Assembly: GCA_020854065.1 (NCBI GenBank)
Contig: JADZGF010000003.1
Coordinates: forward strand, 96,913 to 160,912
Source: Candidatus Nomurabacteria bacterium
Lineage (GTDB): Bacteria; Patescibacteriota; Minisyncoccia; Phycocordibacterales; SBAW01
DNA: 64,000 bases
Direction: 5' to 3'
The notes beneath the pieces were generated by a model. The model did no database searches and had not been told where the DNA came from. It worked only from the letters and a program-made list of their open reading frames with translations. Both the position numbers and the translations under genes were made by a program. Shown piece after piece: positions 22,384-59,186 of this stretch; position 1 is the stretch's first letter; each line of letters opens with the position of its first letter.

Positions 22384-22429
22384 AATGAATTTGATAATAA
22401 CAGAACCTACCTTTTTCAGCAGTAAATTA

Positions 22430-22460
22430 TTGACCAAACATTAATTTCATGTTATTTTAC
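22430..22460 (+). promoter_or_regulatory. candidate sigma-70-type promoter for the HEAR-repeat/ParB-like operon
   Basis: TTGACC, 17-nt spacer, TATTTT. AGGAG SD sits 7 nt before ATG 22507. Confidence 0.3.
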
Positions 22461-22506
22461 TTCATAGGTAGAACGTTGAAAATTCTCACTTAATTAGGAG
22501 TAAGTA

Positions 22507-23583
22507 ATGCCCAGAAAGTGGAGCAAAGAGATTGTGGTCCGCCACATCTTAAAGCGACACCGGAGTGGCAAGAAGCTTAACTCCGGATACATGCAAACGC
22601 GCTGCGTTCCTCTCTATCAAGCAGGATGTCTACACTACGGGAATTGGCAGAAAGCCATAGAGGCTGCCGGGCTCAAATATGAAAATATAAAAATCAATAA
22701 GAGTCGGTGGTATCGCCCAAAGTGGAATAAAGAGAAAGTTGTCGTAGTTATTCGAAATCGATATAAGCGCAGTCTTCCTCTTAATTCAAACCATATTCAA
22801 ACAAGATTGGGACGATTATACGCCGCTGCTATTAAATATCACGGGAGTTGGCCTCAGGCTGTAGCCGCTGCTGGACTTGATTATGCGAAGTTCAGAAAAG
22901 TGACTATGCGTTACTGGTCAAAGAAGGCTATTGTAGCGGAAATCTTACGTCGTTCTGACACTAAGCTCTCTATTCGTGGCGGTGATGTTGCAAACGAAGA
23001 CCCAAGTCTTTATCGAGCGTCTATTCGACACTTCGGAAGGCGAGGGTGGACTAAAGCAAGGATGCTCGCTGGATTCCCGCCAATCGACCCTTCGCCACTG
23101 ATCATATGGAGTAAAGAAACGGTAATACAAGAAATCCTTCAGCTTCATGAAAATGGAGTCCCGCTCAATACGGGCGCACTCGGAGAAACGTATGGTTACA
23201 TTCGTAGCGCTGGCGAAAAACACTTTGGGTCGTGGGGGAAAGCCATTACTGCGGCTGGCCTCGATTATCTAACGATCTGCAAGAACAAACCGAGAGGCTG
23301 GTGGACAAAATCTCGTCTTATTCAAGCAATACAAAACTTGGATAAACAAGGTCTTCGTCTGAGCTCTAAAAGCATAAAGGAGTCTCATGGAGATATCTTT
23401 GGCTCTGCACTCTCTAAGTTTGGAAGTTGGAGTCAGGCAGTCGAAGCTGCAGGTATATCATATAGGCTTCATACGCGGGTATGGTCGACCAAGGCTTGGA
23501 TGCGTAGAATGCAAGAAGACGAATACAACATAACGCTCGAAAGAGCACAAACCCACGCAAAGAAACGAAGGAGAATTGCATGA
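22507..23583 (+). CDS. tandem-repeat protein (5 x about 65 aa) resembling homing-endonuclease-associated repeats (HEAR-like)
   Basis: Repeats share W-x-KE-vv--I--R---G-xLN...LY-AA---GSW--A--AAGLDY (e.g. YHGSWPQAVAAAGLDY, HFGSWGKAITAAGLDY, KFGSWSQAVEAAGISY). No catalytic domain. Confidence 0.55.
   Translation: MPRKWSKEIVVRHILKRHRSGKKLNSGYMQTRCVPLYQAGCLHYGNWQKAIEAAGLKYENIKINKSRWYRPKWNKEKVVVVIRNRYKRSLPLNSNHIQTRLGRLYAAAIKYHGSWPQAVAAAGLDYAKFRKVTMRYWSKKAIVAEILRRSDTKLSIRGGDVANEDPSLYRASIRHFGRRGWTKARMLAGFPPIDPSPLIIWSKETVIQEILQLHENGVPLNTGALGETYGYIRSAGEKHFGSWGKAITAAGLDYLTICKNKPRGWWTKSRLIQAIQNLDKQGLRLSSKSIKESHGDIFGSALSKFGSWSQAVEAAGISYRLHTRVWSTKAWMRRMQEDEYNITLERAQTHAKKRRRIA
22516..23460 (+). repeat. five tandem roughly 195-nt coding repeats (HEAR-like units)
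   Basis: Periodicity seen in the translation at aa 4-58, 72-126, 137-191 (degenerate), 200-254 and 266-318. Confidence 0.6.
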
Positions 23584-24620
23584 GCTTGCCGCAGTCGCTG
23601 ACTTCAATTTTGAAGCAGATGCCACGTATCCCGGTCAACAAGATCCGAGAAAACTTGGTTACGCTTCGAACTGAATACGAGCCGGAATCTCTCGGTGAGT
23701 TGGGGGATTCGATGGATGAGAAAGGTCAGCTACAACCCATTATCGTCCAACCAGCCAATGACGAAAATTATTTCGATCTCGTCATTGGTTCGCGCCGACT
23801 TCGGGCTGCAAAATCGAAAGGGCATCAAGATGTGGTCGCATATGTCATCGACAGGCGCGATCCCGTCGAGTTGCTCTTCATCGCTTTGGCCGAAAACCTT
23901 CATCGTCGTGATCTGAATCCTTTTGAGGAGGCGCAGGGCTTCCTGCGGCTCATGAAGGAATTCAATCTCGATCTGAAGGCTGTTGCTAAAGGAGTTAATA
24001 AGCCTGAGTCCCATGTCCGCAGTCGTCTCCAGCTGCTCAGTATGCCGGAGGAAGTTGTGGAGATGGTTGCGGAACACCAGCTTCCGATCCATCATGTTCG
24101 AACACTTGCACGGCTGCCAACTGGCGAAGGTCAGGTTCGGCTCGCTCGATCGGCGGTTGAGAATCGCCTCAGTCAATCAGAACTGAGTGCACAAGTACGA
24201 CAGGAGCTCTCCGAACCACCCCGTAAGGAGCGGGAGTCCCATGAACTTACGCCTGTAAAGCTGCAAGCTCGGGTTGGTGAGTTCGTCACCTTCCTACAAA
24301 AAGTGCCGCGCCGTCTTAACTTGCGTCGCATGAACGCATCTGAAAAAACAAGCCTGGTAAATTGCTTGCAATCTTTATCAGATGAAGCCCGGGCACTCCT
24401 GTCTACTGTAAAGGATGCAACATCACCTGCTGCGAAGACGCACCCGAACCTTACAAGAAGCCATACTGACCCAAATAATCACGGTCAGGAATGGACAATT
24501 CAGGATCTCAGGAGAATCCACGCGAAGCGTCGACCGTCTGATGGAGAACTTGCAGTTGAACTTGGTCGCACTGTTGGTGCGATAAAAGTAATGAGAAGTC
24601 TGTCAAAAGACAGAGCATAA
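23580..24620 (+). CDS. ParB-like nuclease (ParB/Srx N-terminal) domain protein with HTH and unknown C-terminal region
   Basis: IIVQPANDENYFDLVIGSRRLRAAK...ALAENLHRRDLNPFEEAQGF is the ParB N-domain signature. ATGA overlap with the upstream gene (translational coupling). Confidence 0.65.
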   Translation: MSLPQSLTSILKQMPRIPVNKIRENLVTLRTEYEPESLGELGDSMDEKGQLQPIIVQPANDENYFDLVIGSRRLRAAKSKGHQDVVAYVIDRRDPVELLFIALAENLHRRDLNPFEEAQGFLRLMKEFNLDLKAVAKGVNKPESHVRSRLQLLSMPEEVVEMVAEHQLPIHHVRTLARLPTGEGQVRLARSAVENRLSQSELSAQVRQELSEPPRKERESHELTPVKLQARVGEFVTFLQKVPRRLNLRRMNASEKTSLVNCLQSLSDEARALLSTVKDATSPAAKTHPNLTRSHTDPNNHGQEWTIQDLRRIHAKRRPSDGELAVELGRTVGAIKVMRSLSKDRA

Positions 24621-24627
24621 AAACACA

Positions 24628-24657
24628 GGGTCCCGTACGCGGGGCCCTTTTTCTTTT
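24628..24657 (+). terminator. rho-independent terminator
   Basis: GGGTCCCGTACGCGGGGCCC followed by TTTTTCTTTT. Confidence 0.7.
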
Positions 24658-24684
24658 GTAAAAAATGTTGTATTTTGATACTCA

Positions 24685-26547
24685 ATGACTCCGAATCAGG
24701 TGCGGGAGAAATATCTCAAGTTTTTTGCTGAACGCGGGCATACCGTTATCCCTTCGGCGCCGCTTGTGCCAGAAAACGATCCAACCACTCTTTTCACCGG
24801 CTCAGGCATGCAGCCGCTCATCCCATATCTTCTTGGGAAGAATCATCCTGCAGGAAATCGACTCACTGATTCGCAAAAATCATTCCGTGCAATGGACATT
24901 GAAGAGGTTGGTGACAATCGCCATACAACCTTTTTTGAAATGTTGGGCAACTGGTCATTAGGTGACTATTTCAAGCAAGAACAACTTCCGTGGTTCTTTG
25001 AATTTCTTACAAAGGAAATCGGTCTCGATCCGAAGCGTTTGTATGTGAGCGTCTATGCAGGGGATGAAACAGCAGGAGTACCGCGCGATACAGAATCAGC
25101 TGAGGTGTGGAAGAAGCTTTTTAGTGACGCAGGAATTGATGCGAAAGACATTGAACTGATAACTGAAGAGAACGGAGCAGAGTTGGGTATGCAGGGTGGC
25201 CGCATCTTCTACTACCGCGATAAAAACTGGTGGAGTCGTGCCGGAGTACCCGAGAAAATGCCTGCAGGGGAACCAGGTGGTCCTGATTCCGAAGTCTTCT
25301 ATGAGTTTGAGCATATAGCGCACGATCCGAAGTTTGGTGCCCACTGCCATCCAAACTGTGATTGTGGTCGTTATCTCGAAATCGGTAACTCAGTATTTAT
25401 GGAGTTTATTAAAAATGCCGATGGGACCTTCGGCAAACTCCCGAAGCGTAACGTCGACTTTGGTGGCGGACTTGAGCGCATTGCTGCAGCAAGCCAAGGC
25501 AAAGATGATGTCTTTTTGGTAAACCACAGCTACCTCATCGAAGCGCTTGAGCAATCGACAGGCACTACGTATGCAGATCATATTCGCGCATATCGCGTTA
25601 TTGCTGACCATATAAAAGCTGCCGTCTTCCTTATCGGCGATGGTGTACTTCCTGGCAACAAAGACCAAGGTTATTTTGTACGCAGACTCTTGCGTCGCAG
25701 CATACTTGCGGCAAGCAAGCTTGGGACCATCTCTGTCGCATCTTTAGTTGGAGCAATTGTTGAGAACTATAAAGATCAATATCCAGAACTACACACAAAA
25801 AGCGCTGAGATTGAGTCTTCGATCCGCGATGAAGAAAATCGCTTCACCGCAACACTTGCCCGCGGCATGAAAGAACTCGAGCGCTATATCGGCAAAGGTT
25901 CACTTTCGGCTCAAGAGGCGTATGAACTGGTTACCACATACGGCTTTCCCCTCGAACTCATTCTTGAAGAGATCGGGGAGCGCGGTATTACGCAAATTGA
26001 TATTGAGGGCTTTAAAGAATTGTTGAAACAACACCAAGATCTCTCCCGTGCAGGAAGTGAGCAGAAGTTTAAAGGCGGTCTTGCAGATACCTCTGAGGCA
26101 ACCACGCGCCTCCATACCGCCCACCATCTTCTCCTTAAAGCACTTCAAGTCGTTCTGGGGCCCGAGGTACACCAGCGCGGTAGCAATATCACTCAGGAGC
26201 GTCTGCGCATCGACTTTAACTATGGGCAAAAGATGACCGATGAGCAGAAAAAGGAAGTCGAGCGGATTGTAAACGAAAAGATTCAAGAGAATCTTCCTGT
26301 CATTCGTACTGAAATGAGTAAAGACGAGGCAGAGAAGCTCGGTGCAGAACATGAGTTTGGTGCTAAATACCCAGATCGTGTTTCGGTGTACTCAGTTGGT
26401 CCACTTGAAAACGCATTTTCAATCGAGTTTTGTGGTGGTCCGCATGTTGAACAAACAAGCGAGCTAACCAAAGCAGGTACTTTTAAGATTCTTAAAGAAG
26501 AAGCAGTGGCGCAGGGTATCCGCCGCATTCGCGCAGTGCTGCAATAA
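24685..26547 (+). CDS. alaS: alanine--tRNA ligase (short form: catalytic plus editing domains, no C-Ala domain)
   Basis: N-terminus FFAERGHTVIPSAPLVPENDPTTLFTGSGM (class II AlaRS). Editing-domain HTAHHLL and CGGPHV motifs. 620 aa versus about 870 aa typical. Confidence 0.85.
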   Translation: MTPNQVREKYLKFFAERGHTVIPSAPLVPENDPTTLFTGSGMQPLIPYLLGKNHPAGNRLTDSQKSFRAMDIEEVGDNRHTTFFEMLGNWSLGDYFKQEQLPWFFEFLTKEIGLDPKRLYVSVYAGDETAGVPRDTESAEVWKKLFSDAGIDAKDIELITEENGAELGMQGGRIFYYRDKNWWSRAGVPEKMPAGEPGGPDSEVFYEFEHIAHDPKFGAHCHPNCDCGRYLEIGNSVFMEFIKNADGTFGKLPKRNVDFGGGLERIAAASQGKDDVFLVNHSYLIEALEQSTGTTYADHIRAYRVIADHIKAAVFLIGDGVLPGNKDQGYFVRRLLRRSILAASKLGTISVASLVGAIVENYKDQYPELHTKSAEIESSIRDEENRFTATLARGMKELERYIGKGSLSAQEAYELVTTYGFPLELILEEIGERGITQIDIEGFKELLKQHQDLSRAGSEQKFKGGLADTSEATTRLHTAHHLLLKALQVVLGPEVHQRGSNITQERLRIDFNYGQKMTDEQKKEVERIVNEKIQENLPVIRTEMSKDEAEKLGAEHEFGAKYPDRVSVYSVGPLENAFSIEFCGGPHVEQTSELTKAGTFKILKEEAVAQGIRRIRAVLQ

Positions 26548-26576
26548 GAGGCTTTTTAGTGCGCTATACTTTTCGT

Positions 26577-27527
26577 ATGGCACTGTTTGGCTCAAAAAAG
26601 CCCACGCCTAAGACTTTTGTCGTACTTGATATCGAGACCGGCTCGGTTGGTGGGGTATTAGTGCACCGCACTCCCGGAGAAGCTCCTCGATTATTTGGAG
26701 AAACGCGCGTTGATCTTGCGATTGGTACCACTCGCGATGCGCATACACTGCGTGAACGAGCTGCGCATGCGCTTGAGCGTGTAGCTCAATCACTTTCGCA
26801 TGTTGCTGCCCGTGTTCGCGGCAACGAAGCGACTGCGCATATGGGGAATGCTTCCCATGCAGTTGCATTTCTTGCAGCACCTTGGGGTACTCCTAATCTC
26901 GAGTCAGGTGCTCCTCAATTTTCAGCCGATATGGTGGGGAGCGTACAATCTGCACTGGCAAGCACCTTTGCCGTACCGCTCTCAGTCCATGCACGTGCTT
27001 CCGCGACACTCCATGGCGCACGGCTCCTTTTTCCGTATGAAGAGAATTACATCATTGGTATGCCGCATGGCGAGGTGTCCGAAGTGCTTGAGATAGTGGG
27101 AGGCAATGCACGCAGTCATGGCACACTTCCGGTGGGACGAAATACTATGGTTCGTACCTTTATGAGCCATGGCGGGCTGCACGAAAATGAGGGACGCTCC
27201 GCACTTAAAGCACTTTCGCTCGGACATGTACCGGCACATCTCAGTGAACCTGTTCGTCATACCTATGAGCATGTGGCGACACATTTTAATGATCTTGCGA
27301 CTTCTCATGGATGGCATGAACATGGTCGGGTATATTCTTTTGCCCATGATGGTGATTGGTTTGCGCGTGCACTTGCACACAGTTCTGCTGCAAAGAAATT
27401 CCCTGATGGAGCAGTGGTGACTGCAATTCGTGCAGAACACTTCTCTCCCTACGTTGCAGGCCATGCACAGGTACCCGATTTAGGGTTGATGCTTGGGGGT
27501 CTCTTTGTTGATAGCCATTATCGATAA
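26577..27527 (+). CDS. His-rich hypothetical protein, possibly actin-like ATPase fold (FtsA/PilM-like N-terminus)
   Basis: FVVLDIETGSVGGVLV resembles the phosphate-1 motif of the actin/Hsp70 fold. The rest is divergent with many His. Track start GTG 26559; first ATG used. Confidence 0.35.
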   Translation: MALFGSKKPTPKTFVVLDIETGSVGGVLVHRTPGEAPRLFGETRVDLAIGTTRDAHTLRERAAHALERVAQSLSHVAARVRGNEATAHMGNASHAVAFLAAPWGTPNLESGAPQFSADMVGSVQSALASTFAVPLSVHARASATLHGARLLFPYEENYIIGMPHGEVSEVLEIVGGNARSHGTLPVGRNTMVRTFMSHGGLHENEGRSALKALSLGHVPAHLSEPVRHTYEHVATHFNDLATSHGWHEHGRVYSFAHDGDWFARALAHSSAAKKFPDGAVVTAIRAEHFSPYVAGHAQVPDLGLMLGGLFVDSHYR

Positions 27528-27544
27528 GTGATAGACTAGATTTT

Positions 27545-28804
27545 ATGCGAGATATTAACCCCGGATACGGTGGGGCACCTGAGCACCGCTCTATCCGCAA
27601 TGTTCAGGTAGGGGGACGCCGTACACACCAGGAGCACGAGGAACACCACGTACCCCAGAGTCGGCCTCCACGTCGCCGGGGAAGAGGGCGTTTTTGGCTT
27701 ATTGCCACCGGAGTGGTTATCCTCTGTGCAATAGCGGGCGTATTACTCTCAACTACCTTTGCGGGAGCAACAGTCACCGTGCATCCTCGCCAAGTGGTGG
27801 TTCAAGCTCCTCGTTCGATTGAGGCAAAACTCACGGCCGCGGTGGGTGAGTTGGAATATCGCACCATCTCTTCAACACGTGAAGCAAGTCTGACCGTTGA
27901 TGCGGAAGGAACAAAGCAGGTAAGTCGCCAAGCATCCGGTCCGGTTACTATTTCAAATACTTTTTCTGCTGAGCCACAACGACTCATTGCAAACACTCGC
28001 TTTGAAGCGCCTGACGGCAAGATTTATCGCATCCGCGACTCCGTAACGGTTCCCGGCATGGTGGGAAGTAAAGCAGGGACAATCGTTTCAGTGGTATACG
28101 CTGATTCTCCCGGTGCAAGCTACAACAAAACGGGCGCTATCGGCTTTACCGTCCCTGGGTTTAAAAACGACCCTCGATTTGAGGGCATCACCGCACAATC
28201 CCAAGGCCCTATTTCTGGTGGTTTTGTAGGGGAAGAGCCTGCAGTATCAGACGAAGACCTTGCTGAGGCAAAAACACGCCTCACTGAGCAACTCGAAACC
28301 GAGGCAACCGCCGCACTCAATCAGTCGATCCCGGAAGGATACGGACTTCTTCCTGGAACGGTGAAAGTAACGTATTCGGAGATTGCACAAGTCGCAGAGG
28401 GAGATAGTCGTGCAAAACTCACACAGAGTGCAACCGCACAAGGCGCAATCGTACAAGGTAGTGCTATGGGTACCGCTATCGCACGACTCCAGGTGCAAGG
28501 ATATAAAGGTGAGGCAGTCGCACTTATTCCAGACAATCTCACCGTCTCCGCTTCTTCAACTGAGGAGGGAATTATCGAAATCTCCATGCAGGGCGAAGCA
28601 GGACTGGTGTGGCAGTTTGATCCGATAGCAGTGCAGCAGGCCTTGCTTGGTAAATCGAAGAAAGACTTCCAAGACATCGTAGGATCATTTGCGCCAGCAA
28701 TTGAGTGTACTGATGCACGTCCGTGCGATGCGCGACTACGTCCATTCTGGTCAGGAAACTTTCCTTCCAATCCCGATAAAATCGAGGTTGTTATAGGAAA
28801 TTAG
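27545..28804 (+). CDS. membrane-anchored hypothetical protein (Arg-rich cytoplasmic N-terminus, single TM, large extracytoplasmic domain)
   Basis: RRRGRGRFWLIATGVVILCAIAGVLL then a roughly 340-aa probable beta-rich domain. Confidence 0.45.
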   Translation: MRDINPGYGGAPEHRSIRNVQVGGRRTHQEHEEHHVPQSRPPRRRGRGRFWLIATGVVILCAIAGVLLSTTFAGATVTVHPRQVVVQAPRSIEAKLTAAVGELEYRTISSTREASLTVDAEGTKQVSRQASGPVTISNTFSAEPQRLIANTRFEAPDGKIYRIRDSVTVPGMVGSKAGTIVSVVYADSPGASYNKTGAIGFTVPGFKNDPRFEGITAQSQGPISGGFVGEEPAVSDEDLAEAKTRLTEQLETEATAALNQSIPEGYGLLPGTVKVTYSEIAQVAEGDSRAKLTQSATAQGAIVQGSAMGTAIARLQVQGYKGEAVALIPDNLTVSASSTEEGIIEISMQGEAGLVWQFDPIAVQQALLGKSKKDFQDIVGSFAPAIECTDARPCDARLRPFWSGNFPSNPDKIEVVIGN

Positions 28805-29242: not shown

Positions 29243-29620
29243 ATGCGTATCTCAGGTATCACCATTCCTAATAAACAAGTACCCTACGCGCTCACGGCGC
29301 TTTATGGTATCGGTGTATCACGTGCAAAATCGATTGTTACGCAGGCAAAAGTAGATCCTTCGAAGCGTGCTGATGATCTTTCGGCAGACGAAGAGGCAGC
29401 ACTCCGCAAAATCATTGAGACTCTTAAACTTGAAGGCGACCTTAAACGTGAGGTTGCAGGAAACATTAAGCGCCTCAAAGATATCGGCAGCTACCGTGGC
29501 ACCCGCCACAACAAGCACATGCCGGTTCGCGGTCAGCGCACCAAGACGAACTCCCGCACGGTCCGTGGCAACGTCCGCAAGACCATGGGTAGCGGTCGCC
29601 GTAAGGAAAGCAAGACATAA
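29243..29620 (+). CDS. rpsM: 30S ribosomal protein S13
   Basis: MRISGITIPNKQVPYALTALYGIG. Confidence 0.95.
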   Translation: MRISGITIPNKQVPYALTALYGIGVSRAKSIVTQAKVDPSKRADDLSADEEAALRKIIETLKLEGDLKREVAGNIKRLKDIGSYRGTRHNKHMPVRGQRTKTNSRTVRGNVRKTMGSGRRKESKT

Positions 29621-51449: not shown

Positions 51450-52219
51450 CACCCGACAGAATGCTCATCGCCTATAGCACGATGCTCCGCAACGAATTGG
51501 TGCGGATCTTCCGCATTTGGTCGCAGACCCTACTTCCTCCAGTTGTTACGACCTCGCTTTACTTTGTGGTCTTCGGTGCCTTTATTGGCAGCCAAATTGC
51601 CCCAATAGACGGGTTTACCTACATGCAGTTCATTGTGCCTGGCCTCATCATGATGTCAGTCATTACCTCAAGCTACATGAACACCGTATCCATGTTCTAT
51701 TTTGCGAAATGGACCAAGACGCTCGACGAAATGCTCGTGAGCCCTATGCCGGAGTGGGTCATCGTCGCAGGATATGTGAGCGGGGGAGTATTGCGTGGAC
51801 TTTTGGTTGGCGCGTTGGTACTTGCGGTATCACTCTTCTTTACGCATCTCGCAATATTTAATGCCTTTGTTTTGGTTGCTGCACTGGTGTTAACCTCGGT
51901 GCTCTTTAGCTTGGGAGGGCTTATCAACGGCGTCTTCGCAAAGGGCTTTGACGGCATCTCGATTGTGCCTACCTTCGTGTTAACTCCTCTTACGTACCTC
52001 GGTGGTATTTTCTACTCCGTAGAGATGCTGCCAGAGTTCTGGCAGAAGGTGAGCCTCTTTAACCCGATCCTGTATATGGTGAATGCATTCCGCTACGGCT
52101 TCCTCGGCATTAGCGACATACCACTCTGGCAGTGCTTCGCTGTACTCTTTGCGTTTTTAGGTATCTTTATAATCGTATTGATGTACCTGTTTAAGCAGGG
52201 GATCGGGGTCAAGAACTAG
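51446..52219 (+). CDS. ABC-2 family transporter permease
   Basis: 6-TM. ATGA overlap with the ATPase gene. Confidence 0.8.
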   Translation: MTPDRMLIAYSTMLRNELVRIFRIWSQTLLPPVVTTSLYFVVFGAFIGSQIAPIDGFTYMQFIVPGLIMMSVITSSYMNTVSMFYFAKWTKTLDEMLVSPMPEWVIVAGYVSGGVLRGLLVGALVLAVSLFFTHLAIFNAFVLVAALVLTSVLFSLGGLINGVFAKGFDGISIVPTFVLTPLTYLGGIFYSVEMLPEFWQKVSLFNPILYMVNAFRYGFLGISDIPLWQCFAVLFAFLGIFIIVLMYLFKQGIGVKN

Positions 52220-52222
52220 GAA

Positions 52223-52894
52223 CTATTTCCTTTTCTTCTTTGCGCGTGGCTCTGGCCACTCCATTAATCCTGCCGCTTTTATTTCAATCTTGTTTGCTTT
52301 GCGCAAAAACTTTTCCTGATCTTTGGGCAGAGCAGGGTAGTGGGGCACCGTGTCGAGTCTCTCGCCCAGCCAATCAAGGTCGCCTCCCGACCACCACTTT
52401 TTAGGATGGTACGCGGTGAGACTAAATGGTTTGGAATATTCAAGCATAGTCTTGCGGCCACCGTTCCGATCATTGAGCGGCCAAAAATATTCATGGAAAT
52501 AACTCATGCATAATTCGCGTACTGTTTTATACACTGGGTCTCGCCAGCGCAAGACCGGATAGTTTGTCTTACTTATCGCACCCCAGTATCCGTTTTGCTG
52601 AAACGGTGCGATGACGTGATCGAGATCGTACGCTGCGGATCGTAGATCAATTAAAAGAGGTTGCTTGCCGTGATAGGCGAGGGCAGCGGCAGCTAAAACT
52701 GCCCCCTCAATGCAATGTGCTTTTTTAGTAGCAAGAACTTGAGACGGATTTTGGATAGGGTCCCCTATTGGAGCAAAATTTTCGGGGAAGTGGTCTAGGA
52801 AGTCCTGAATCTTAATTGGCGTCGATAATTTTTTTAACGTGGCGCGCTCGGTGGGGGAAAGAGTAGAAATTAATTTTTTTTGATATTCAGTCAT
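52223..52894 (-). CDS. hypothetical protein with candidate Cys-His catalytic pair (papain/transglutaminase/NAT-like fold?)
   Basis: KKAHCIEGAVLAAAALAYHG ... DLDHVIAP. No confident family assignment. Confidence 0.45.
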   Translation of the reverse strand: MTEYQKKLISTLSPTERATLKKLSTPIKIQDFLDHFPENFAPIGDPIQNPSQVLATKKAHCIEGAVLAAAALAYHGKQPLLIDLRSAAYDLDHVIAPFQQNGYWGAISKTNYPVLRWRDPVYKTVRELCMSYFHEYFWPLNDRNGGRKTMLEYSKPFSLTAYHPKKWWSGGDLDWLGERLDTVPHYPALPKDQEKFLRKANKIEIKAAGLMEWPEPRAKKKRK

Positions 52895-53101
52895 AGGGTT
52901 GGGAAGCCGCTTCGCTCAAGGTCATAAGGGTCGCACAATATACATTTTCCGACCCTTATATCCTTTAACACTAAGGGGAGCCTTTGAACCTCGGCTCCCG
53001 CACTGCTGCTTCCCTCCTTGTATTCTACTCCAACCTTGAGGTGTTCTTTTTGTCTGTATTTTTATTTCTCTCTGTTCCCTCTAGTGCTGGTTGCAGGTTT
53101 T

Positions 53102-53149
53102 TAGCCGAGTTCCCGAGATTTGTTGTATTCAAAGGGTATCTAGCCGAGT
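53102..53149. promoter_or_regulatory. direct repeat TAGCCGAGT (x2, 39 nt apart) plus CCGAG/CTCGG inverted repeat in a 330-nt pyrimidine-rich divergent intergenic region
   Basis: Seen at about 53102-53110 and 53141-53149. Sits upstream of the TIR-like gene (+) and the 52223..52894 gene (-). Confidence 0.25.
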
Positions 53150-53226
53150 CCTTTCTTTTTCTCGGTTAAACGGGGGAGGCGCTTCCCTATTTACCATACG
53201 CATGGACTGAGATACCGTATGTCTAT

Positions 53227-54504
53227 ATGGCACGTACAGTATTTTTTTCTTGGCAGTCGGATACGCCACCCGCTGTGGGACGTCGTTTTATTGAAGATAT
53301 TCTGACAGAGATCTGCGCCGGTGTATCAGGAGAGACAACTGTCGATGATTCTCCACGCGACAACCTATTAGTCGATAGCGATACTAAGAACGTTGCGGGA
53401 CACCCCCCAATATTTCCAATCATACTAGATAAGATTGATCGTTCCGCGGTCTTTGTTGCAGATTTAACAGCTGTGGGCGTGCGAAACAACGGCTCAGGGC
53501 TAATAGCCAATCCAAATGTACTTATCGAATACGGTTACGCAATAAAGACACATGGGTATGAACGGATAGTCTACTTACTTAACACAGCGTACGGGGAACC
53601 AGGTAAATTTGGAGAGAATCTTCCTTTTGATCTACGGCACGCACGTCATCCAATCACTTTTCATCTTCCAAACAATGCAACAAAAATAGCCGCACAAAAA
53701 GAAAAGGCGAGACTCCTCCCTCTTCTTGAGCGCGCAATACGCGCAAGCCTCACCAAAACCCCAACGGACGAGAGGATTGAGCAACCTTCTTATCGTGAAA
53801 GAAAGACTTGGATTGACCCGTCCCGCTTCCGTGCGCCAGGTATAGAACTGGGCATAAAGGATGATTGGTTTTTCAGTGAAAAGAAAACTCAAAAAGTCTT
53901 CCTGGACGAGGGTCCTGCCGCTTGGTTGAGACTCATACCAACTCTCAGCTCAGAGAAGAAATTTCGCACAGCAGAGTTAAAAAAAATCATTCAAGGCCAA
54001 TCCGGAGCCAGGTTTCCAACCTTGATTGATAGGGGTGGTGGGTATGATTACGTCCGGGCCGAAGATGGGATGGGTTTATACTACTCCGTTGGTCAAGACA
54101 CAGATGATTTAGTCAGAACTCCTACTGTTGCCTATATGTTCAACACTGGAGAAATCTGGAGTATAGATACTGCTCGGCTTAGTTACGGCCAGAATATTCC
54201 TTTTTTAGAAGAGGAATTTAAAGCCTCCCTCGAGGCGTACGCGAATACCTTGGCAAGTTTGGGTATACCTGGACCTTATAAGTGGAAAGTGGGCATGACG
54301 GGTCTAAAAGACAAAAAAATAAGTATGCCTCCACCTGCGCCGGGAAAGGGTTATATATCAAATACTGGCCCCACCTGTGTCACTGATACTATAGAAATGG
54401 AAGGTGTCTATCAAACCGGCCAAAAGTCCGCAGATGCACTCAGGCCATTTTTCGAAGAACTCTTTGATCAGTGCGGAATGACTCGTCCTGCGCATCTCCA
54501 ATAA
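53227..54504 (+). CDS. TIR-like/SLOG-type (ThsB/DUF1863- or NDT-like) N-terminal domain fused to a roughly 290-aa uncharacterised C-terminal domain; candidate defence/signalling protein
   Basis: Begins RTVFFSWQSD (cf. TIR betaA F-x-S-x-x-x-x-D). ILDKIDRSAVFVADLT ... NPNVLIEYGYAI matches the conserved-Glu motif of TIR-like and nucleoside 2-deoxyribosyltransferase-like folds. The C-terminal domain has no recognised motifs. Confidence 0.5.
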   Translation: MARTVFFSWQSDTPPAVGRRFIEDILTEICAGVSGETTVDDSPRDNLLVDSDTKNVAGHPPIFPIILDKIDRSAVFVADLTAVGVRNNGSGLIANPNVLIEYGYAIKTHGYERIVYLLNTAYGEPGKFGENLPFDLRHARHPITFHLPNNATKIAAQKEKARLLPLLERAIRASLTKTPTDERIEQPSYRERKTWIDPSRFRAPGIELGIKDDWFFSEKKTQKVFLDEGPAAWLRLIPTLSSEKKFRTAELKKIIQGQSGARFPTLIDRGGGYDYVRAEDGMGLYYSVGQDTDDLVRTPTVAYMFNTGEIWSIDTARLSYGQNIPFLEEEFKASLEAYANTLASLGIPGPYKWKVGMTGLKDKKISMPPPAPGKGYISNTGPTCVTDTIEMEGVYQTGQKSADALRPFFEELFDQCGMTRPAHLQ

Positions 54505-54582
54505 AAACGGACTTTGTATCTATTCCCATGTTTTCATTCATACAAAAACTCCCCCATTTCTGGAGGAGTCTTTGTGTAGGAG

Positions 54583-55002
54583 TTAGTTAGACTTCGCGAG
54601 GTGGGTGCCCTTGCTCCAGCATGCCTTAGAGGCATTCCAGGGTTTGGTACCCTCCTTCTCATAAAGATAGCGAGCGTACTCTAAGTTACCCTGGACTGAA
54701 AGGATATCCATATCCATCTTAGCTGCCGTATCTTTGTGGAGAGACGACATGATCTGGAAGATACCCATTGCGGTACTGTTTGGGTTTTTAACCACATTCC
54801 CCTTCTTATCAAACTGGCGGAACTGCGACTCGCAGCGCGCAATATTGACCATGACAGGGGCATCGGCAAAGTATATTTCAACGTACTCCTTAACGGTCTG
54901 GGCAGCGGGCATGGTAGCCGGAACGTTGCCAACCGATGGCTGCGGGGCCATAAAGGCCGAGAGCGCAAGGGCGACAGAGGCTGCAGAAGTGGTAAGAGGC
55001 AT
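54583..55002 (-). CDS. small secreted lytic transglycosylase-like (SLT/lysozyme-like fold) protein
   Basis: Signal peptide, then ARCESQF (catalytic Glu-Ser) ... STAMGIFQI (SLT GLMQ-type motif). Confidence 0.55.
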   Translation of the reverse strand: MPLTTSAASVALALSAFMAPQPSVGNVPATMPAAQTVKEYVEIYFADAPVMVNIARCESQFRQFDKKGNVVKNPNSTAMGIFQIMSSLHKDTAAKMDMDILSVQGNLEYARYLYEKEGTKPWNASKACWSKGTHLAKSN

Positions 55003-55117
55003 GTATTTGTATTAAGTGGTTATGAACCTAGAGAACAAAAAGGCCCGGGCGAGAACCGCCTGGGCGTAAGACAATGGTAGTCTATTTTCGTCAATAGGTC
55101 AAGGCGAAAGCTTGACA

Positions 55118-55152
55118 ATATAAAAGGGGGTCTGGAATTGCCCAGATCCCCT
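55118..55152 (-). terminator. rho-independent terminator on the - strand (a second weaker hairpin at about 55042-55066)
   Basis: - strand reads GGGGATCTGGGCAATTCCAGACCCCC followed by TTTTATATT. Confidence 0.5.
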
Positions 55153-55185
55153 TATTTGACAACGTATTTTATTGTTGTACTGCGT

Positions 55186-55875
55186 TTAGGCCACCTGGGG
55201 CACTAAACCTGCGAGCGCCCGGAGTGCATGGGGGAGAAGTTCCTCCATCCGCTTCTCTTCCATCCAGACTTTGACCGCCTCATCACCAATGAGGAGGTAG
55301 TCCTTCCAGAAGTCGCCCTTTTCTTGGAGCAGAGACGAGAGAGACGGCGGCCTGCCCACAAAGGAGTGATAGACGCAGAAAAGGTTGTCTTTGTGCACGT
55401 CCTTCTCTTCAAACGGAGCAAAGTGGCCGTGCGGATGGACGAACCCTTCAATGTAGGCTCCGACCGGAAGCGTCAGCATATTGAAGGTATGATCCTTCCG
55501 AAGGATGAGGTTGGGACCACTGAGTATGCCCATGCGATAGGCTTCTCGTTCCTCCGTATCCCAGCCGAACCCAAAGCGGTGGCGGGTACATTCGCGCGAA
55601 GGGTAGCAGATAAGTACCAGCTCCCCTGTCCTTCCCTCCATGGCGGCTTCAACGGCGCGACATCGATCTTCAAGCTCAGGCCAGTAGCCGGCGTAGGAGA
55701 TAACCAGGTCGCGGAGCCGATCGCCCGTGCCGACACCCGCCGCAACCAACGCACGGAGTTCATTACTCCGTCTATTGATCTGCTCATCAATTTCTTTGAG
55801 CCGGGCGTGTACGTCTTCTTTTTGCTTGCGGAGCCCTTCCAGGCTATTGATAAACGTCTTGGCAGTTTCGTTCAT
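55186..55875 (-). CDS. hypothetical protein (coiled-coil N-terminus); fully overlapped by antisense ORF 55228..55914
   Basis: Codon third-position pattern (gaa/gag, aaa/aag, GC3-rich) looks coding on the - strand. No family recognised. Confidence 0.4.
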   Translation of the reverse strand: MNETAKTFINSLEGLRKQKEDVHARLKEIDEQINRRSNELRALVAAGVGTGDRLRDLVISYAGYWPELEDRCRAVEAAMEGRTGELVLICYPSRECTRHRFGFGWDTEEREAYRMGILSGPNLILRKDHTFNMLTLPVGAYIEGFVHPHGHFAPFEEKDVHKDNLFCVYHSFVGRPPSLSSLLQEKGDFWKDYLLIGDEAVKVWMEEKRMEELLPHALRALAGLVPQVA

Positions 55876-55948
55876 CGCACCCTCTCTGTTGGAACAATGC
55901 TAGCGCAAGCGTAGCAGAATACGATATCTTGGTAAAGATAAAGAAATA

Positions 55949-56022
55949 CGGGCTGTAGTATACCGGTAGTACGCATGCATGGGGTGCATGTAGACCGGGT
56001 TCGATTCCCGGCAGCCCGACCA
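55949..56022 (+). tRNA. tRNA-Pro (anticodon GGG)
   Basis: Hand-folded cloverleaf: acceptor CGGGCTG/CAGCCCG, U8, D-stem GTAT/GTAC with GG in loop, anticodon stem CATGC/GCATG, loop AU-GGG-GU, T-arm CCGGG-TTCGATT-CCCGG, discriminator A, encoded CCA. 74 nt. Confidence 0.8.
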
Positions 56023-56089
56023 TACATTGACCATTCGTATAAAAAACTGTATTGTAAATCTTGGAACAACCCCATATATAGGAGTATTT

Positions 56090-56197
56090 ATGACTGTGAC
56101 CTGGGTTGATCATATTTGGGTCATCGTTTTGCTCGTCGTAGCAATAGGTGGCGGGTACCTTGCAGGCAAGAGTATCGAGCGCGCCGGGAAATTATAG
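56090..56197 (+). CDS. small hydrophobic peptide (35 aa) downstream of the tRNA
   Basis: AGGAG SD 7 nt upstream; MTVTWVDHIWVIVLLVVAIGGGYLAGKSIERAGKL; followed by a terminator. Confidence 0.3.
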   Translation: MTVTWVDHIWVIVLLVVAIGGGYLAGKSIERAGKL

Positions 56198-56217
56198 GCG
56201 CACGACACAAAAACTCT

Positions 56218-56248
56218 CGAGCCGCCCTGAAAAAGGGCGGCTTTTAAT
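56218..56248 (+). terminator. rho-independent terminator
   Basis: GCCGCCCTGAAAAAGGGCGGCTTTT. Confidence 0.7.
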
Positions 56249-56269
56249 CTAAACTCATAGGAGGTTTGC

Positions 56270-56761
56270 ATGTGGCCTAGTGATATCGTGTATCTCCAAA
56301 CGATCTTCAGTATCGTGTTCTATGTATTTGGTATTGGAGCCGCTATTGTTGCCTTCGCTTCGCTTCGGGCTAATCGACAAAATCAGCGCGAAGCCAACGC
56401 AAGAAGAGCGTATCTCGACTACGCACGACTTGGGATCGAATACCCAGAATTTGCTTTCCCTCGACATCTTGAAATAAATCTCGAGAAACAAACGATAAAA
56501 GAAAGTAGGCTGGAATTCGAACGATACGAATGGTTCATATCGATACTTCTTGGGACTGTTCGATTCTTCCTCGAGTCGACAAGCAGGAAAGGAATGTGGC
56601 GCAAGATGATGATCTTACAACTTGCGTACCATTGGGAATATCTCGACAAGTATCGGAATGAAAAGGAATACCTAAAGCAGTGGGCTTTAGAATTAAAGTC
56701 TGAGTTTAACGAAGCAATAGCCTTAGGAAAAAGGTTATATCCACCCAACCGAACCACATAG
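56270..56761 (+). CDS. AT-rich hypothetical membrane protein (N-terminal TM, coiled C-terminus)
   Basis: AGGAGG SD. IFSIVFYVFGIGAAIVAFASL TM. Lower GC than the surroundings. Confidence 0.45.
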   Translation: MWPSDIVYLQTIFSIVFYVFGIGAAIVAFASLRANRQNQREANARRAYLDYARLGIEYPEFAFPRHLEINLEKQTIKESRLEFERYEWFISILLGTVRFFLESTSRKGMWRKMMILQLAYHWEYLDKYRNEKEYLKQWALELKSEFNEAIALGKRLYPPNRTT

Positions 56762-56769
56762 AACCTTCA

Positions 56770-56803
56770 AATCGCCCCTTCACACATTGGGGCGATTTTT
56801 TAT
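56770..56803. terminator. bidirectional rho-independent terminator between convergent genes
   Basis: AATCGCCCCTTCACACATTGGGGCGATTTTTTAT. Confidence 0.7.
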
Positions 56804-57427
56804 TTACAACCACGGAATGGCGTATTGCTCAAACTCCGGAAGGAGTTTTTTGTCATACAAAAGGCGTGAAATAACTTCGGCATTATATTTCGCACCCGTG
56901 AGTGCGTTATGCGGTTCTGGCTCCTCAGGCATACCGCAATAGACGGCAATTGCTTTAAGTCCAAGCGCCGTGTGGTGTTTATCCGGATCAATTGGGGGAG
57001 TCATTCCCCTCTTTATCATATGCTCATAGGCAAGGGAGTGGATATCGATAATCCGATGTGCAAACGGCCAGGCAGTATGCCCAGCGCGACGTGCGGCTGC
57101 CTGGAGGAAATAGGTATCCGTAAAGACATTTTGACCAGCAATGGTGTGATCCTGCATACCCACACCAAAGGCAATAAACTTCTGGACCAACTCAGCTTCA
57201 GACTGCTTCGAAGGGTCTGTTGCCTGCTCGCGGGTAAAGCCACAGACTGCCAAAGCCTCGTCTTCGATCTTTGCCCCATCCCACGCACGGCACTCTTCGT
57301 ATAACTGCCGTGACGGATTATCTAAATCAACCGCCCCTACACTCAAAATCGAGTGGAGAGTCGGCTCAAGCCCGGTCATTTCGCAATCAACGACTAACAT
57401 GCTGCGATTATACCTCAGGAGCGCCAA
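56804..57427 (-). CDS. DEDDh 3'-5' exonuclease (DnaQ/RNase T-like)
   Basis: LVVDCEMTGL (Exo I D-x-E), later H and D motifs (HNALTGAKYNAEV, Exo III). Confidence 0.75.
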   Translation of the reverse strand: MALLRYNRSMLVVDCEMTGLEPTLHSILSVGAVDLDNPSRQLYEECRAWDGAKIEDEALAVCGFTREQATDPSKQSEAELVQKFIAFGVGMQDHTIAGQNVFTDTYFLQAAARRAGHTAWPFAHRIIDIHSLAYEHMIKRGMTPPIDPDKHHTALGLKAIAVYCGMPEEPEPHNALTGAKYNAEVISRLLYDKKLLPEFEQYAIPWL

Positions 57428-57671
57428 ACACCTTAGTGGTCCAATCGTTTGCCTTCCCTACAAATCTATGGAGATTGGGATATTTAATCGTGTGTTTGTC
57501 CATCCATGCACGCAACCGTGGGCTATACATTGAAAAGAGGAGTGCCGAGATAGCTAAAAACAGCCACCCTTGGAGTACGGGCAACACCAGACCTGCCAAG
57601 CCCAATACAAAAAAGAAACTGGCCAAGGTCAGGATGAGAATTTTCTTTAGTTTTTTCTTAAGCATTGCCAT
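57408..57671 (-). CDS. DUF454 (YbaN-like) small inner-membrane protein
   Basis: LGLAGLVLPVLQGWLFLAISALLFSMYSPRLRAWM. Confidence 0.55.
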   Translation of the reverse strand: MAMLKKKLKKILILTLASFFFVLGLAGLVLPVLQGWLFLAISALLFSMYSPRLRAWMDKHTIKYPNLHRFVGKANDWTTKVFGAPEV

Positions 57672-57673
57672 AT

Positions 57674-58024
57674 CTATAATCCCGGACAGTTTGCTGCAGG
57701 CCCATACCCTGCTGCCTCTGCTGCAGTAGTCGAATCAAACCACACCTTGTTCTCCTCGTTTATACGGTTAGCCCCACCGCACGAAGGAAGGTAGTACTTA
57801 CTCCCATTTTTAGACGCCACGTACTTCCCTGCCCCTGAAGGAGCCGCGGAAGCCACCGAAGCTGCCTGGGTAGAGCTCCCAGGCATCACTGCGCCGTTAA
57901 TTACCAGACGGGGACCCTCCAACTGGCTTACCGAAAGCCTCCCAAGGCCAAAACAGGCAAGTCCTACCAGGGCCACCATGGCCGGGATGAGCAGGGGCTC
58001 AATGGTCTTGCTAAAGTCGTTCAT
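57674..58024 (-). CDS. membrane-anchored hypothetical protein with Cys-containing C-terminal motif
   Basis: TM helix, then [48 protein letters not shown]. Trimmed to ATG 58024 to avoid overlapping rpmA. Confidence 0.4.
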
Positions 58025-58044
58025 CCCTGCTATTGTACACGCAT

Positions 58045-58323
58045 ATGGCAAGTAAGAAAGCCGGCGGAACAGCGAAAAACCTGACCGATTCAAAGCCCAA
58101 ATATTTGGGCGTTAAACTCTATGCCGGAGAGGTTGCAAAGCCGGGCGATATCATCGTACGCCAGCGTGGTACCAAAATGATGCCGGGCAAGCATGTCGGA
58201 TTGGGTAAAGACCACACTCTTTTTGCACTCAAAGAGGGCGTTGTCTCCTTTAACTTCGTCCGCAAGACCGGCTTTACCGGTCGCACCGTTAAACGCTCCC
58301 GCGTCGACGTCTCCCCTCGCTAA
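58045..58323 (+). CDS. rpmA: 50S ribosomal protein L27
   Basis: [29 protein letters not shown]... Confidence 0.9.
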
Positions 58324-58337
58324 TATTTCTCACATAA

Positions 58338-58369
58338 CAAAAGCCCCTGCGCAGGGGCTTTTGTTTTTG
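58338..58369. terminator. bidirectional rho-independent terminator
   Basis: AAAAGCCCCTGCGCAGGGGCTTTTGTTTTT. Confidence 0.75.
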
Positions 58370-58371
58370 GG

Positions 58372-58602: not shown

Positions 58603-58719
58603 AGTGTTATGTAGGTTAGTGTGCGAGTAATGCTCGACCGCGGCCCGAGCCCTGTTGCGCAGACGGGCAGGCCTAACAAGCAGTATGCCGGAGTATGCAT
58701 GAACGCGAGGTTAAAGTGG

Positions 58720-59166: not shown

Positions 59167-59186
59167 AGAGGCAATAATACCCTTCT

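What the first reader, a model, noticed from the sequence alone, without database searches (positions are those of the whole stretch)
22384..24684. Self-contained two-gene cassette: HEAR-like tandem-repeat protein translationally coupled to a ParB-like nuclease-domain protein
The unit sits between the divergent pepO and alaS genes and has its own promoter-like element and terminator. Gene 1 (358 aa) consists solely of five repeats of about 65 aa with the signature ...LN...LY.AA...GSW..A..AAGLDY. Such repeats (homing-endonuclease-associated repeats) normally flank HNH nucleases of mobile introns and inteins. Gene 2 overlaps it by ATGA and encodes a ParB/Srx-type N-domain (GSRRLRAAK ... ALAENLHRRDLNPFEEAQGF). 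In non-partition contexts that domain acts as a nuclease/NTPase, as in DndB-like proteins and some homing endonucleases. No parA and no replication genes are present, so this is not a partition locus. A repeat DNA-binding module paired with a ParB-like nuclease looks like a split selfish-endonuclease, defence or addiction module. The ParB-like gene is slightly more GC-rich than its neighbours.
Basis: partly seen in the sequence, partly recalled or inferred. Interest (0 to 1): 0.65.

Follow-up and report, generated by a model that had tools for sequence, protein, structure and literature searches.

The report
HEAR-repeat protein with orphan ParB clamp
A small two-gene insert in a Candidatus Nomurabacteria (CPR) genome pairs a very basic five-repeat helical protein with a ParA-less ParB-type CTP-switch DNA clamp; the pair always travels together in Patescibacteria, is absent from the closest relatives, and looks like an accessory DNA-regulating or DNA-organising module, not a nuclease.

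Summary
Two translationally coupled genes (22507-23583 and 23580-24620, ATGA overlap) have their own promoter-like site and terminator. Gene 1 consists of five HEAR (PF18780) units. Gene 2 is not a bare "ParB-like nuclease domain". It is a full ParB/Spo0J-type protein (ParB_N + HTH_ParB, TIGR00180 above cut-off). Its CTP-contacting arginines are intact, but both residues known to catalyse CTP hydrolysis are replaced (QPR→TLR, GERR→GSRR). It lacks the ParA-binding motif and has a new C-terminus.

The pairing is strict. All 14 Patescibacteria reference loci with this ParB clade have a HEAR gene alongside, against 0 of 65 canonical ParB loci. ParA is absent.

The cassette is accessory. Four of the four closest relatives examined have an empty pepO-alaS site, and other genomes carry the pair at different core or island positions.

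A conserved single-copy inverted repeat lies in the operon leader.

Best reading: a KorB/KorA- or BisD/BisC-like two-component clamp module. This is a new variant of the orphan-ParB kind. The nuclease, homing and defence readings have no direct support but are not fully excluded.

The parts
22410..22426 (+). Left copy of an imperfect 17-nt direct repeat (CCTTTTTCAGCAGTAAA) flanking the cassette. It aligns with the single copy in empty sites of relatives.
   Evidence: 13/17 identical to the right copy. 124 of 2000 shuffles reach this score, so it is suggestive only.
22430..22458 (+). Promoter-like site TTGACC-17 nt-TATTTT, with TG before the -10 hexamer
   Evidence: Equivalent TTGACT...TAxAAT sites precede the HEAR gene in related loci.
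22470..22486 (+). Leader inverted repeat AGAACGTTGAAAATTCT. Candidate operator (or RNA hairpin) between promoter and ribosome-binding site.
   Evidence: The core C-N-TT-K-A lies 33-46 nt upstream of the start in 13 of 20 independent loci versus about 7% expected. The exact 15-mer GGTTCTTTGAGAACC is kept in four genomes whose HEAR proteins are 40-59% identical. It is single-copy in the window.
22496..22500 (+). Shine-Dalgarno AGGAG of gene 1
   Evidence: read from the sequence
22507..23583 (+). Gene 1: HEAR-repeat protein, 358 aa, pI 10.5. Five units (aa 1-66, 67-130, 131-194, 195-259, 260-325) plus a conserved tail WSTKAW...KKRRRIA.
23580..24620 (+). Gene 2: orphan ParB-family protein, 346 aa
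23616..23903 (+). ParB N-terminal CTP-binding domain (aa 13-108) with TLR (for QPR), GSRRLRA (for GERRxRA) and ENLHR (for ENLQR)
23910..24206 (+). ParB HTH DNA-binding domain (aa 111-209)
24252..24422 (+). Two long helices (aa 225-281); possible dimerisation hairpin replacing the canonical ParB C-domain
   Evidence: model. No PF23552, unlike the canonical hits. The dimerisation role is inferred.
24477..24617 (+). Clade-specific basic three-helix C-terminal domain (NHGQEWT..DLRRI....RPSD.ELA.ELGRT..AI..MR)
   Evidence: No significant Pfam match. Not related to a HEAR unit.
24627..24658 (+). Intrinsic terminator (stem 24627-24648, then a T tract)
   Evidence: The sub-threshold Rfam ctRNA hit at 24623-24659 is this hairpin.
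24646..24662 (+). Right copy of the flanking direct repeat (CCTTTTTCTTTTGTAAA)

Best explanation
This is an accessory two-component DNA-clamp module of Patescibacteria. Gene 2 encodes a ParA-independent ParB-family protein. It most likely dimerises, recognises a specific DNA site through its ParB HTH domain, binds CTP through its intact GxRRxRA and ENxxR motifs, and closes into a DNA-entrapping sliding clamp. Because the two residues that catalyse CTP hydrolysis in chromosomal ParB are replaced (Gln to Thr, Glu to Ser), the clamp is expected to be slow to reopen. Gene 1 is made in fixed proportion through translational coupling. It encodes a very basic array of five small helical HEAR units that most likely binds nucleic acid and acts as the clamp's partner: targeting it, stalling it or locking it, as KorA does for KorB or BisC for BisD. 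The module probably represses its own promoter through the single inverted repeat in the leader. Its output is most likely local gene regulation or DNA organisation or maintenance, not DNA cleavage. Shown here: domain architecture, motif substitutions, strict gene pairing, absence of ParA and of the ParA-binding motif, accessory distribution, and the conserved leader element. Inferred: CTP binding, clamp formation, slow hydrolysis, physical HEAR-ParB interaction, which protein binds the leader element, and the biological output.
For: Architecture: ParB_N + HTH_ParB, TIGR00180 119 bits (cut-off 58). The protein aligns over residues 13-219 with CTP-bound M. xanthus, B. subtilis and C. crescentus ParB, Noc and KorB.

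Motifs: GSRR in all 58 clade members, TLR or QLR for QPR, ENLHR for ENLQR, arginines retained. Q52 and E93 are the catalytic residues of MxParB; the alanine mutants still bind CTP and close, but release slowly and over-spread (bioRxiv 10.1101/2021.05.05.442810). VirB lacks one of the two residues, has a weak CTPase and acts as a regulator (PMC10770331).

No ParA: (Fisher p = 6e-9). ParA-binding motif present in 0/58 versus 56/62.

Strict pairing: a HEAR gene is adjacent in 14/14 clade loci versus 0/65 canonical loci (Fisher p = 8e-16). In the reverse direction, 11 of 12 close HEAR relatives with enough contig have a ParB alongside, all with GSRR or GARR. The two genes co-diverge (r = 0.75).

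Leader element.

Precedents for clamp plus partner: KorB-KorA (PMC11790492), KorB-TrbA (PMC13584720), BisD-BisC (PMC12409273).
Against: No biochemical data exist for any member. KorB naturally has GARRYR and still hydrolyses 60-90 CTP per dimer per hour (PMC11790492), so Glu to Ser does not prove slow hydrolysis. Nucleotide specificity of ParB-fold proteins cannot be predicted from sequence (Kaljevic et al. 2025), so ATP or GTP is possible. No loading site beyond the single leader repeat was found, and no canonical parS. HEAR-DNA binding and HEAR-ParB contact are untested. Some HEAR-coupled ParBs lack the C-terminal domain, so that domain cannot be the universal docking site. In 7 of the 20 loci examined the core motif of the leader element was not found in the window searched, and the arm covariation could equally indicate an RNA hairpin.
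Confidence: 0.5

Rival explanations
1. Maintenance or partition module of a mobile element (plasmid, phage or integrative element of CPR bacteria) that now also occurs as a solitary chromosomal remnant. ParB marks the element's DNA, and the HEAR protein replaces ParA as the adaptor that tethers or positions it.
For: Three independent loci lie next to large serine recombinases, together with a rolling-circle Rep, CBASS, methylases, a DUF87 ATPase or a LexA-like repressor. Distribution is patchy and positions vary. Orphan ParBs are frequently linked to mobile elements (Kaljevic et al. 2025).
Against: In the window and in most loci there are no mobile-element genes nearby. No close relatives occur in 72,556 plasmids (best 34% identity, generic ParB). 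The viral-contig scan with the HEAR profile found only weak HEAR matches, none with a ParB nearby. The protein search of deposited phage genomes found a single HEAR unit in a Bacillus phage HNH endonuclease. No centromere-like repeat array was found. The HEAR protein has no NTPase motif.
Confidence: 0.2
2. One reading: a selfish endonuclease, defence or addiction cassette, in which the HEAR array recognises a DNA target and the ParB-fold protein cuts or poisons DNA.
For: The cassette is present or absent at an otherwise identical site. An imperfect 17-nt direct repeat flanks it. HEAR units occur in HNH endonucleases and in an Mrr-helicase fusion. The CTPase catalytic residues are changed, so the chemistry may differ.
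Against: No nuclease domain is present in either protein. There are no PADLOC hits. Gene 2 keeps the full clamp architecture, including the HTH. The flanking repeat is not significant (p about 0.06). The pair keeps the same neighbourhood across 42-76% protein identity (L008, L010, L011), which fits inheritance plus loss as well as it fits homing. Composition is native.
Confidence: 0.1
3. It is simply the host's chromosomal ParB for origin segregation or SMC loading, with a lineage-specific accessory protein.
For: TIGR00180 and Noc-like scores are high. It sits among housekeeping genes.
Against: It is absent from four of four closest relatives at the same site. It also appears absent from the long contigs (up to 750 kb) of more than 100 close relatives, judged from non-overlapping contig lengths in the hit lists. 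There is no ParA, no ParA-binding motif, no canonical C-domain and no parS. One locus carries a separate canonical-type ParB beside it.
Confidence: 0.05

Closest known systems
KorB-KorA (and KorB-TrbA) of plasmid RK2
   Same: A ParB-family CTP clamp without the catalytic Glu (GARRYR in KorB; GSRR or GARR here) works with a small, separately encoded DNA-binding partner that locks or stalls it. Its role is in gene regulation, not ParA-driven segregation (PMC11790492, PMC13584720). KorB is among the structural matches.
   Different: The partner here is a 358-aa five-repeat HEAR array unrelated to KorA or TrbA. KorB also serves IncC (ParA), whereas no ParA is present here. The C-terminal domain is different. 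The setting is CPR chromosomes, not a plasmid. No operator network has been identified.
BisD-BisC of ICEclc
   Same: A gene pair encoding a ParB-like CTP clamp with an extra C-terminal effector domain plus a DNA-binding partner. Both are needed together, they are autoregulated, and CTP hydrolysis is slow (PMC12409273).
   Different: There is no sequence relationship between the partners or between the C-terminal domains. BisDC is part of a large ICE regulon, whereas this pair is usually solitary.
VirB of Shigella
   Same: An orphan ParB-like clamp lacking one of the two hydrolysis residues, with a weak CTPase and a regulatory function (PMC10770331).
   Different: VirB derives from plasmid P1-type ParB and has no obligate co-encoded partner. 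Here both catalytic positions are changed in most members.
Canonical chromosomal ParB/Spo0J and Noc
   Same: These are the best sequence and structure matches (33-39% identity over the N-domain plus HTH). The GxRRxRA arginines and the ENxxR motif are shared.
   Different: It lacks the ParA-binding motif, the catalytic Gln and Glu, the PF23552 C-domain, an adjacent parA and parS. It also lacks the N-terminal membrane-targeting context of Noc (not analysed in detail).
HEAR repeats (PF18780) of HNH homing endonucleases
   Same: The same repeat family (E 2e-17). One unit matches a Bacillus phage HNH endonuclease.
   Different: No HNH or other nuclease is fused or adjacent. The protein is a stand-alone five-unit array with its own conserved tail, and it is coupled to ParB.

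Membership tests
ParB/Spo0J family (PF02195 + PF17762; TIGR00180) | N-terminal ParB/Srx-fold nucleotide-binding domain followed by the ParB HTH domain | tested here: met
   PF02195 E 3e-16, PF17762 E 1e-19, TIGR00180 119 bits versus cut-off 58. Foldseek E 1e-15 to 7BNK, 6SDK and 6T1F.
ParB/Spo0J family (PF02195 + PF17762; TIGR00180) | Phosphate-binding GxRRxRA arginines and the ENxxR motif | tested here: met
   GSRRLRA and ENLHR. R72, R73, E105, N106 and R109 are invariant in 52 sequences.
Canonical CTP-hydrolysing chromosomal ParB | Catalytic Gln (QPR) and Glu (GERR) | tested here: not met
   TLR, and GSRR in 58 of 58 members; a subclade keeps the Gln as QLR.
Canonical CTP-hydrolysing chromosomal ParB | N-terminal ParA-binding motif [LIFV]G[KR]G[LIFV] and an adjacent parA gene | tested here: not met
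   Motif in 0/58 versus 56/62. ParA-like ORF near 1/16 versus 55/65 loci. None in the window.
Canonical CTP-hydrolysing chromosomal ParB | C-terminal dimerisation domain (PF23552) and parS sites | tested here: not met
   PF23552 is absent from all clade members but present in the canonical hits. The only near-parS match in 64 kb is at chance level.
Canonical CTP-hydrolysing chromosomal ParB | CTP binding, CTP-dependent clamp closure and sliding | not testable with these tools
   Needs purified protein (DRaCALA or ITC, cross-linking, BLI on closed DNA).
HEAR / HNH_repeat (PF18780) | Tandem ~55-65-aa repeats matching the family profile | tested here: met
   E 2e-17, 63.7 bits versus cut-off 26. 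Five units are mutually homologous.
HEAR / HNH_repeat (PF18780) | Association with an HNH homing endonuclease domain | tested here: not met
   No HNH in gene 1, in gene 2, or in any of 120 listed homologs' precomputed Pfam domains. Neighbours of the pair carry none.
ParB-fold nucleases and defence proteins (DndB/DUF262-type, Osa-like) and known defence systems | Match to a defence-system profile or presence of a nuclease domain | tested here: not met
   PADLOC gives 0 hits for both proteins at E up to 1. Pfam and NCBIfam show no nuclease domain.
Mobile or selfish cassette | Presence/absence polymorphism at a conserved site, and variable genomic positions | tested here: met
   Empty pepO-alaS sites (51-79 bp) in L177, L178, L179 and L180. 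The pair sits at other positions in L094-L096 and L001-L005.
Mobile or selfish cassette | Own mobility function (integrase, transposase or nuclease) or clear target-site duplication | tested here: inconclusive
   There is no recombinase in the cassette. A serine recombinase is nearby in only 3 independent loci. The flanking 17-nt repeat is 13/17 identical, p about 0.06.
KorB/KorA-type clamp plus partner regulators | Partner protein binds DNA and the clamp, and alters clamp residence and transcription | not testable with these tools
   Only the strict co-occurrence, translational coupling and co-divergence are shown.

The most novel reading that the evidence does not exclude
The pair is an autonomous, recombinase-free selfish cassette of CPR bacteria. 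In this reading the HEAR array reads a DNA target, as it presumably does in homing endonucleases, and the Glu-less ParB fold has been repurposed from a CTP switch into the DNA-processing or DNA-capturing component. That would let the two genes insert themselves at intergenic sites such as pepO|alaS or mreC|pbp2.
Probability: 0.06. Interest if true: 0.85.

Novelty: new variant of a known kind. Interest (0 to 1): 0.5.

Why it matters
Orphan ParB-CTPase-fold proteins are now recognised as widespread, but only a handful (Noc, KorB, VirB, BisD) have known partners and functions. This pair adds a lineage-specific case in the poorly understood CPR/Patescibacteria. Its partner is obligate and of a fold with no solved relative, both hydrolysis residues are consistently substituted, the C-terminal domain is new, and there is a candidate operator. 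Together these make a compact system that could be reconstituted in vitro. It also gives the first non-endonuclease context for HEAR repeats. That family is large (about 5,500 cluster representatives) and almost unstudied, and the pairing suggests HEAR arrays are general DNA-targeting modules. If the cassette proved to be self-mobile, it would be a new kind of mobile element.

Tried and rejected
- Canonical parS search in the window: one near-match at 29314-29329, at chance level.
- Recurring palindromes or 14-mers in the window: none.
- Shared perfect palindromes within 300 bp of the pair across loci: none.
- A rigid 8-N-8 'TT.AA' palindrome model for the leader element captured only 3 of 21 loci and was replaced by the core-anchored analysis. 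MAFFT columns could not score arm covariation because the register shifts between loci, so no count of structure pairs test was made.
- The idea that the ParB C-terminal domain is a cryptic HEAR unit was rejected by hhalign (probability below 1%). Its Myb/SANT-like look is by eye only, and Pfam gives nothing significant.
- Neighbours of distant, ParB-less HEAR proteins are unrelated housekeeping genes and gave no clue.
- Serine recombinase linkage holds for only 3 loci.
- A shared contig length between an alaS hit and a HEAR hit (6,059 bp) was a coincidence, and that contig is another empty site.
- Rfam: only a sub-threshold ctRNA match, which is the terminator hairpin.
- Literature searches for PF18780/HEAR and for ParAB in CPR bacteria found nothing relevant.
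- I could not determine whether carrier genomes also encode a canonical ParAB elsewhere.
Full report
**The object**

The window comes from a Candidatus Nomurabacteria (Patescibacteria/CPR) metagenome-assembled genome. Exact copies of both proteins are on record from a 165,723-bp contig.

Between the divergent genes pepO (M13 peptidase) and alaS lie two ORFs, at 22507-23583 (358 aa) and 23580-24620 (346 aa), overlapping by ATGA. A promoter-like site (TTGACC-17-TATTTT, 22430-22458) and an AGGAG ribosome-binding site precede gene 1. A 9-bp-stem terminator with a T tract (24627-24658) follows gene 2.

**Gene 1**

- It matches PF18780 (HNH_repeat/HEAR) at E 2e-17.
- It consists of five ~64-aa units that are mutually homologous (hhalign probability 99.5-99.9%). 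The third unit is degenerate. A conserved tail (WSTKAW...KKRRRIA) follows the fifth unit.
- AlphaFold with a 72-sequence alignment gives a confident model (pLDDT 90.9) of five four-helix units.
- The protein is extremely basic (pI 10.5; 67 K+R versus 25 D+E).
- The wider HEAR family is large: 5,499 representatives at E ≤ 1e-3 and 1,495 at E ≤ 1e-30. Its members include fusions to a MucR/Ros DNA-binding domain and to an Mrr nuclease plus SF2 helicase. A single unit occurs in a Bacillus phage HNH endonuclease.
- All of this fits a nucleic-acid-targeting module, but no member has been studied. Only one paper mentions the family, in a list.

**Gene 2**

The protein also carries the ParB HTH domain (PF17762, E 1e-19) and passes TIGR00180 (119 bits against a cut-off of 58).

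It aligns over residues 13-219 with CTP/CDP-bound ParB of M. xanthus, B. subtilis and C. crescentus, with Thermus Spo0J, and with Noc; KorB also matches, over residues 33-162. The model superposes on these structures.

In an alignment of 58 clade members plus canonical ParBs:
- The CTP-contacting arginines (GxRRxRA) and the ENxxR motif are invariant.
- The Glu of GERR is Ser in every member.
- The Gln of QPR is Thr (Gln in one subclade).
- ENLQR is ENLHR.

In M. xanthus ParB these two residues (Q52, E93) are catalytic. The alanine mutants still bind CTP and close, but release from DNA slowly and over-spread. VirB, which lacks one of the two, has a very weak CTPase. KorB has GARRYR and still hydrolyses CTP, so reduced hydrolysis is a reasonable inference but not proven.

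The N-terminal ParA-binding motif is absent in 0 of 58 members, against 56 of 62 canonical hits. The canonical C-domain (PF23552) is replaced by two long helices, a disordered linker, and a basic three-helix domain with the near-invariant motif NHGQEWT..DIRRI....RPSDEELA.ELGRT..AIR.MR. That domain has no significant Pfam match and is not a HEAR unit. Neither protein hits any defence-system profile.

**The pairing is strict**

A scan of 185,579 species-representative genomes found full-length relatives of gene 2 only in Patescibacteria: Kaiser-, Adler-, Yonathbacteria, Paceibacterota and others.
- In 14 of 14 such loci a HEAR gene lies alongside, usually with a 4-bp overlap. In 0 of 65 canonical ParB loci retrieved by the same scan is there one (Fisher p = 8e-16).
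- A ParA-type Walker A ORF lies within the flanks of 55 of 65 canonical loci, but of only 1 of 16 clade loci. That one is 6 kb away, beside fur.
- In the reverse direction, a metagenome scan with the HEAR profile showed a ParB next door for 11 of 12 close relatives of gene 1 with enough contig. These include short ParBs without the clade C-terminus, and all have GSRR or GARR.
- More distant, shorter HEAR proteins have no ParB and no common neighbour.
- Pairwise identities of the two genes across 13 loci correlate (r = 0.75).
- A variant locus in Uhrbacteria has the HEAR gene, a 460-aa GSRR ParB and, divergently, a canonical-type ParB (QPR, GERRLRA).

**The cassette is accessory**

The closest relatives by the adjacent alaS (74-82% identity) keep exactly the same neighbourhood: PD-(D/E)XK, MGMT, UDG, pepO | alaS, two hypotheticals, infA, S13 and onward. 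In them pepO and alaS are only 51-79 bp apart, in four of the four examined.

None of about 120 close alaS-bearing contigs, many of 100-750 kb, matches a HEAR or ParB contig by length, apart from one coincidence.

More distant genomes carry the pair in the same neighbourhood but not at the identical junction (L010, L011, L008). Others carry it between L31/RF1 and an MFS gene, between mreC and pbp2, or in islands with serine recombinases, a rolling-circle Rep, CBASS and methylases.

An imperfect 17-nt direct repeat flanks the window's cassette, and both copies align with the single copy at the empty sites. This is not statistically compelling (13/17; 124 of 2000 shuffles). Base composition is native.

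Insertion and ancestral presence with repeated loss cannot be told apart with these data.

**A cis element**

About 33-46 nt upstream of the HEAR start codon, between promoter and ribosome-binding site, 13 of 20 independent loci have the core C-N-TT-K-A, against about 7% expected by chance. The motif was defined after looking at the data.

In at least eight loci the core sits inside an inverted repeat whose arms differ but stay complementary: GGTTC/GAACC, GAAGTT/AACTTC, TGCTC/GAGCA, and AGAA/TTCT in the window at 22470-22486. The exact 15-mer GGTTCTTTGAGAACC is kept in four genomes whose HEAR proteins are only 40-59% identical. The element is single-copy per locus.

It is best read as an autoregulatory operator. 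An RNA hairpin in the 5' UTR is the alternative.

**Interpretation**

The evidence places gene 2 among the 'orphan' ParB-CTPase-fold proteins surveyed by Kaljevic et al. 2025. That survey does not mention HEAR repeats or Patescibacteria.

The closest functional analogues are KorB-KorA/TrbA and BisD-BisC: a ParB-type clamp, often with slow hydrolysis and an extra C-terminal domain, working with a separately encoded DNA-binding partner. I therefore favour, at about 0.5, a two-component clamp module that regulates or organises DNA and represses itself.

The rivals are:
- a mobile-element maintenance module, at about 0.2;
- a core chromosomal ParB, at about 0.05, which the empty sites contradict.

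The remaining probability covers functions not considered here.

**Verdict**

This is a previously undescribed, lineage-specific variant of a known kind of system. It is of moderate interest, and its components can be tested directly in vitro.

Noticed in passing
window ~52000-60000: Cumulative GC skew peaks at about 57 kb, and the gene strand bias flips from + to - around the same place. This has the polarity of a replication terminus. The cassette lies about 33 kb from it.
   Followed up: no
window 24685-26547 (alaS) and its homologs P0241-P0360: The alanyl-tRNA synthetase is short (598-650 aa; only tRNA-synt_2c and tRNA_SAD domains) in this genome and in all about 120 close relatives. It appears to lack the usual C-terminal region.
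   Followed up: partly
window 22383 / 22437: The mechanical ORF call starts pepO at a TTG (22437). The ATG at 22383 (MQKRLKKGW...) fits the pepO-alaS spacing seen in relatives.
   Followed up: partly
L177 10953-11966; L179 11099-11572: The stretch just downstream of alaS is also variable among close relatives: an FAD-dependent oxidoreductase in one and two small ORFs in another. The alaS neighbourhood may be a small insertion hotspot.
   Followed up: no
L001/L002 1-21068: One HEAR-ParB pair lies in an island with CBASS (CD-NTase plus a Cap15-like effector), two DNA methylases, an SNF2 helicase, a NOV_C protein, a rolling-circle Rep and a large serine recombinase. This is probably an integrated element of a Paceibacterota genome.
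   Followed up: partly
L006/L007/L097 (Uhrbacteria), L022: Variant arrangement: the HEAR gene with two ParB paralogs. One is a long (460-476 aa) GSRR type. The other is a divergently transcribed canonical-type ParB (QPR, GERRLRA) without a ParA-binding motif. In the Uhrbacteria locus (L006/L007) a sigma-70 gene lies next to them.
   Followed up: partly
window 29314-29329: The only parS-like sequence in the window (TGTATCACGTGCAAAA, 2-3 mismatches) lies just after infA. It is at chance level (61 of 100 shuffles give at least 2 matches).
   Followed up: yes
P0361, P0393: HEAR arrays occur fused to a MucR/Ros zinc-finger domain and to an Mrr-type nuclease plus SF2 helicase. The HEAR family has about 5,500 cluster representatives and is essentially uncharacterised.
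   Followed up: partly
window 26559-28804 and homologs in L008, L010, L011, L177-L180: Two conserved hypothetical proteins (322 and 419 aa, the latter with a faint Baseplate_J hit in a relative) always sit between alaS and infA in this lineage. Their function is unknown.
   Followed up: no
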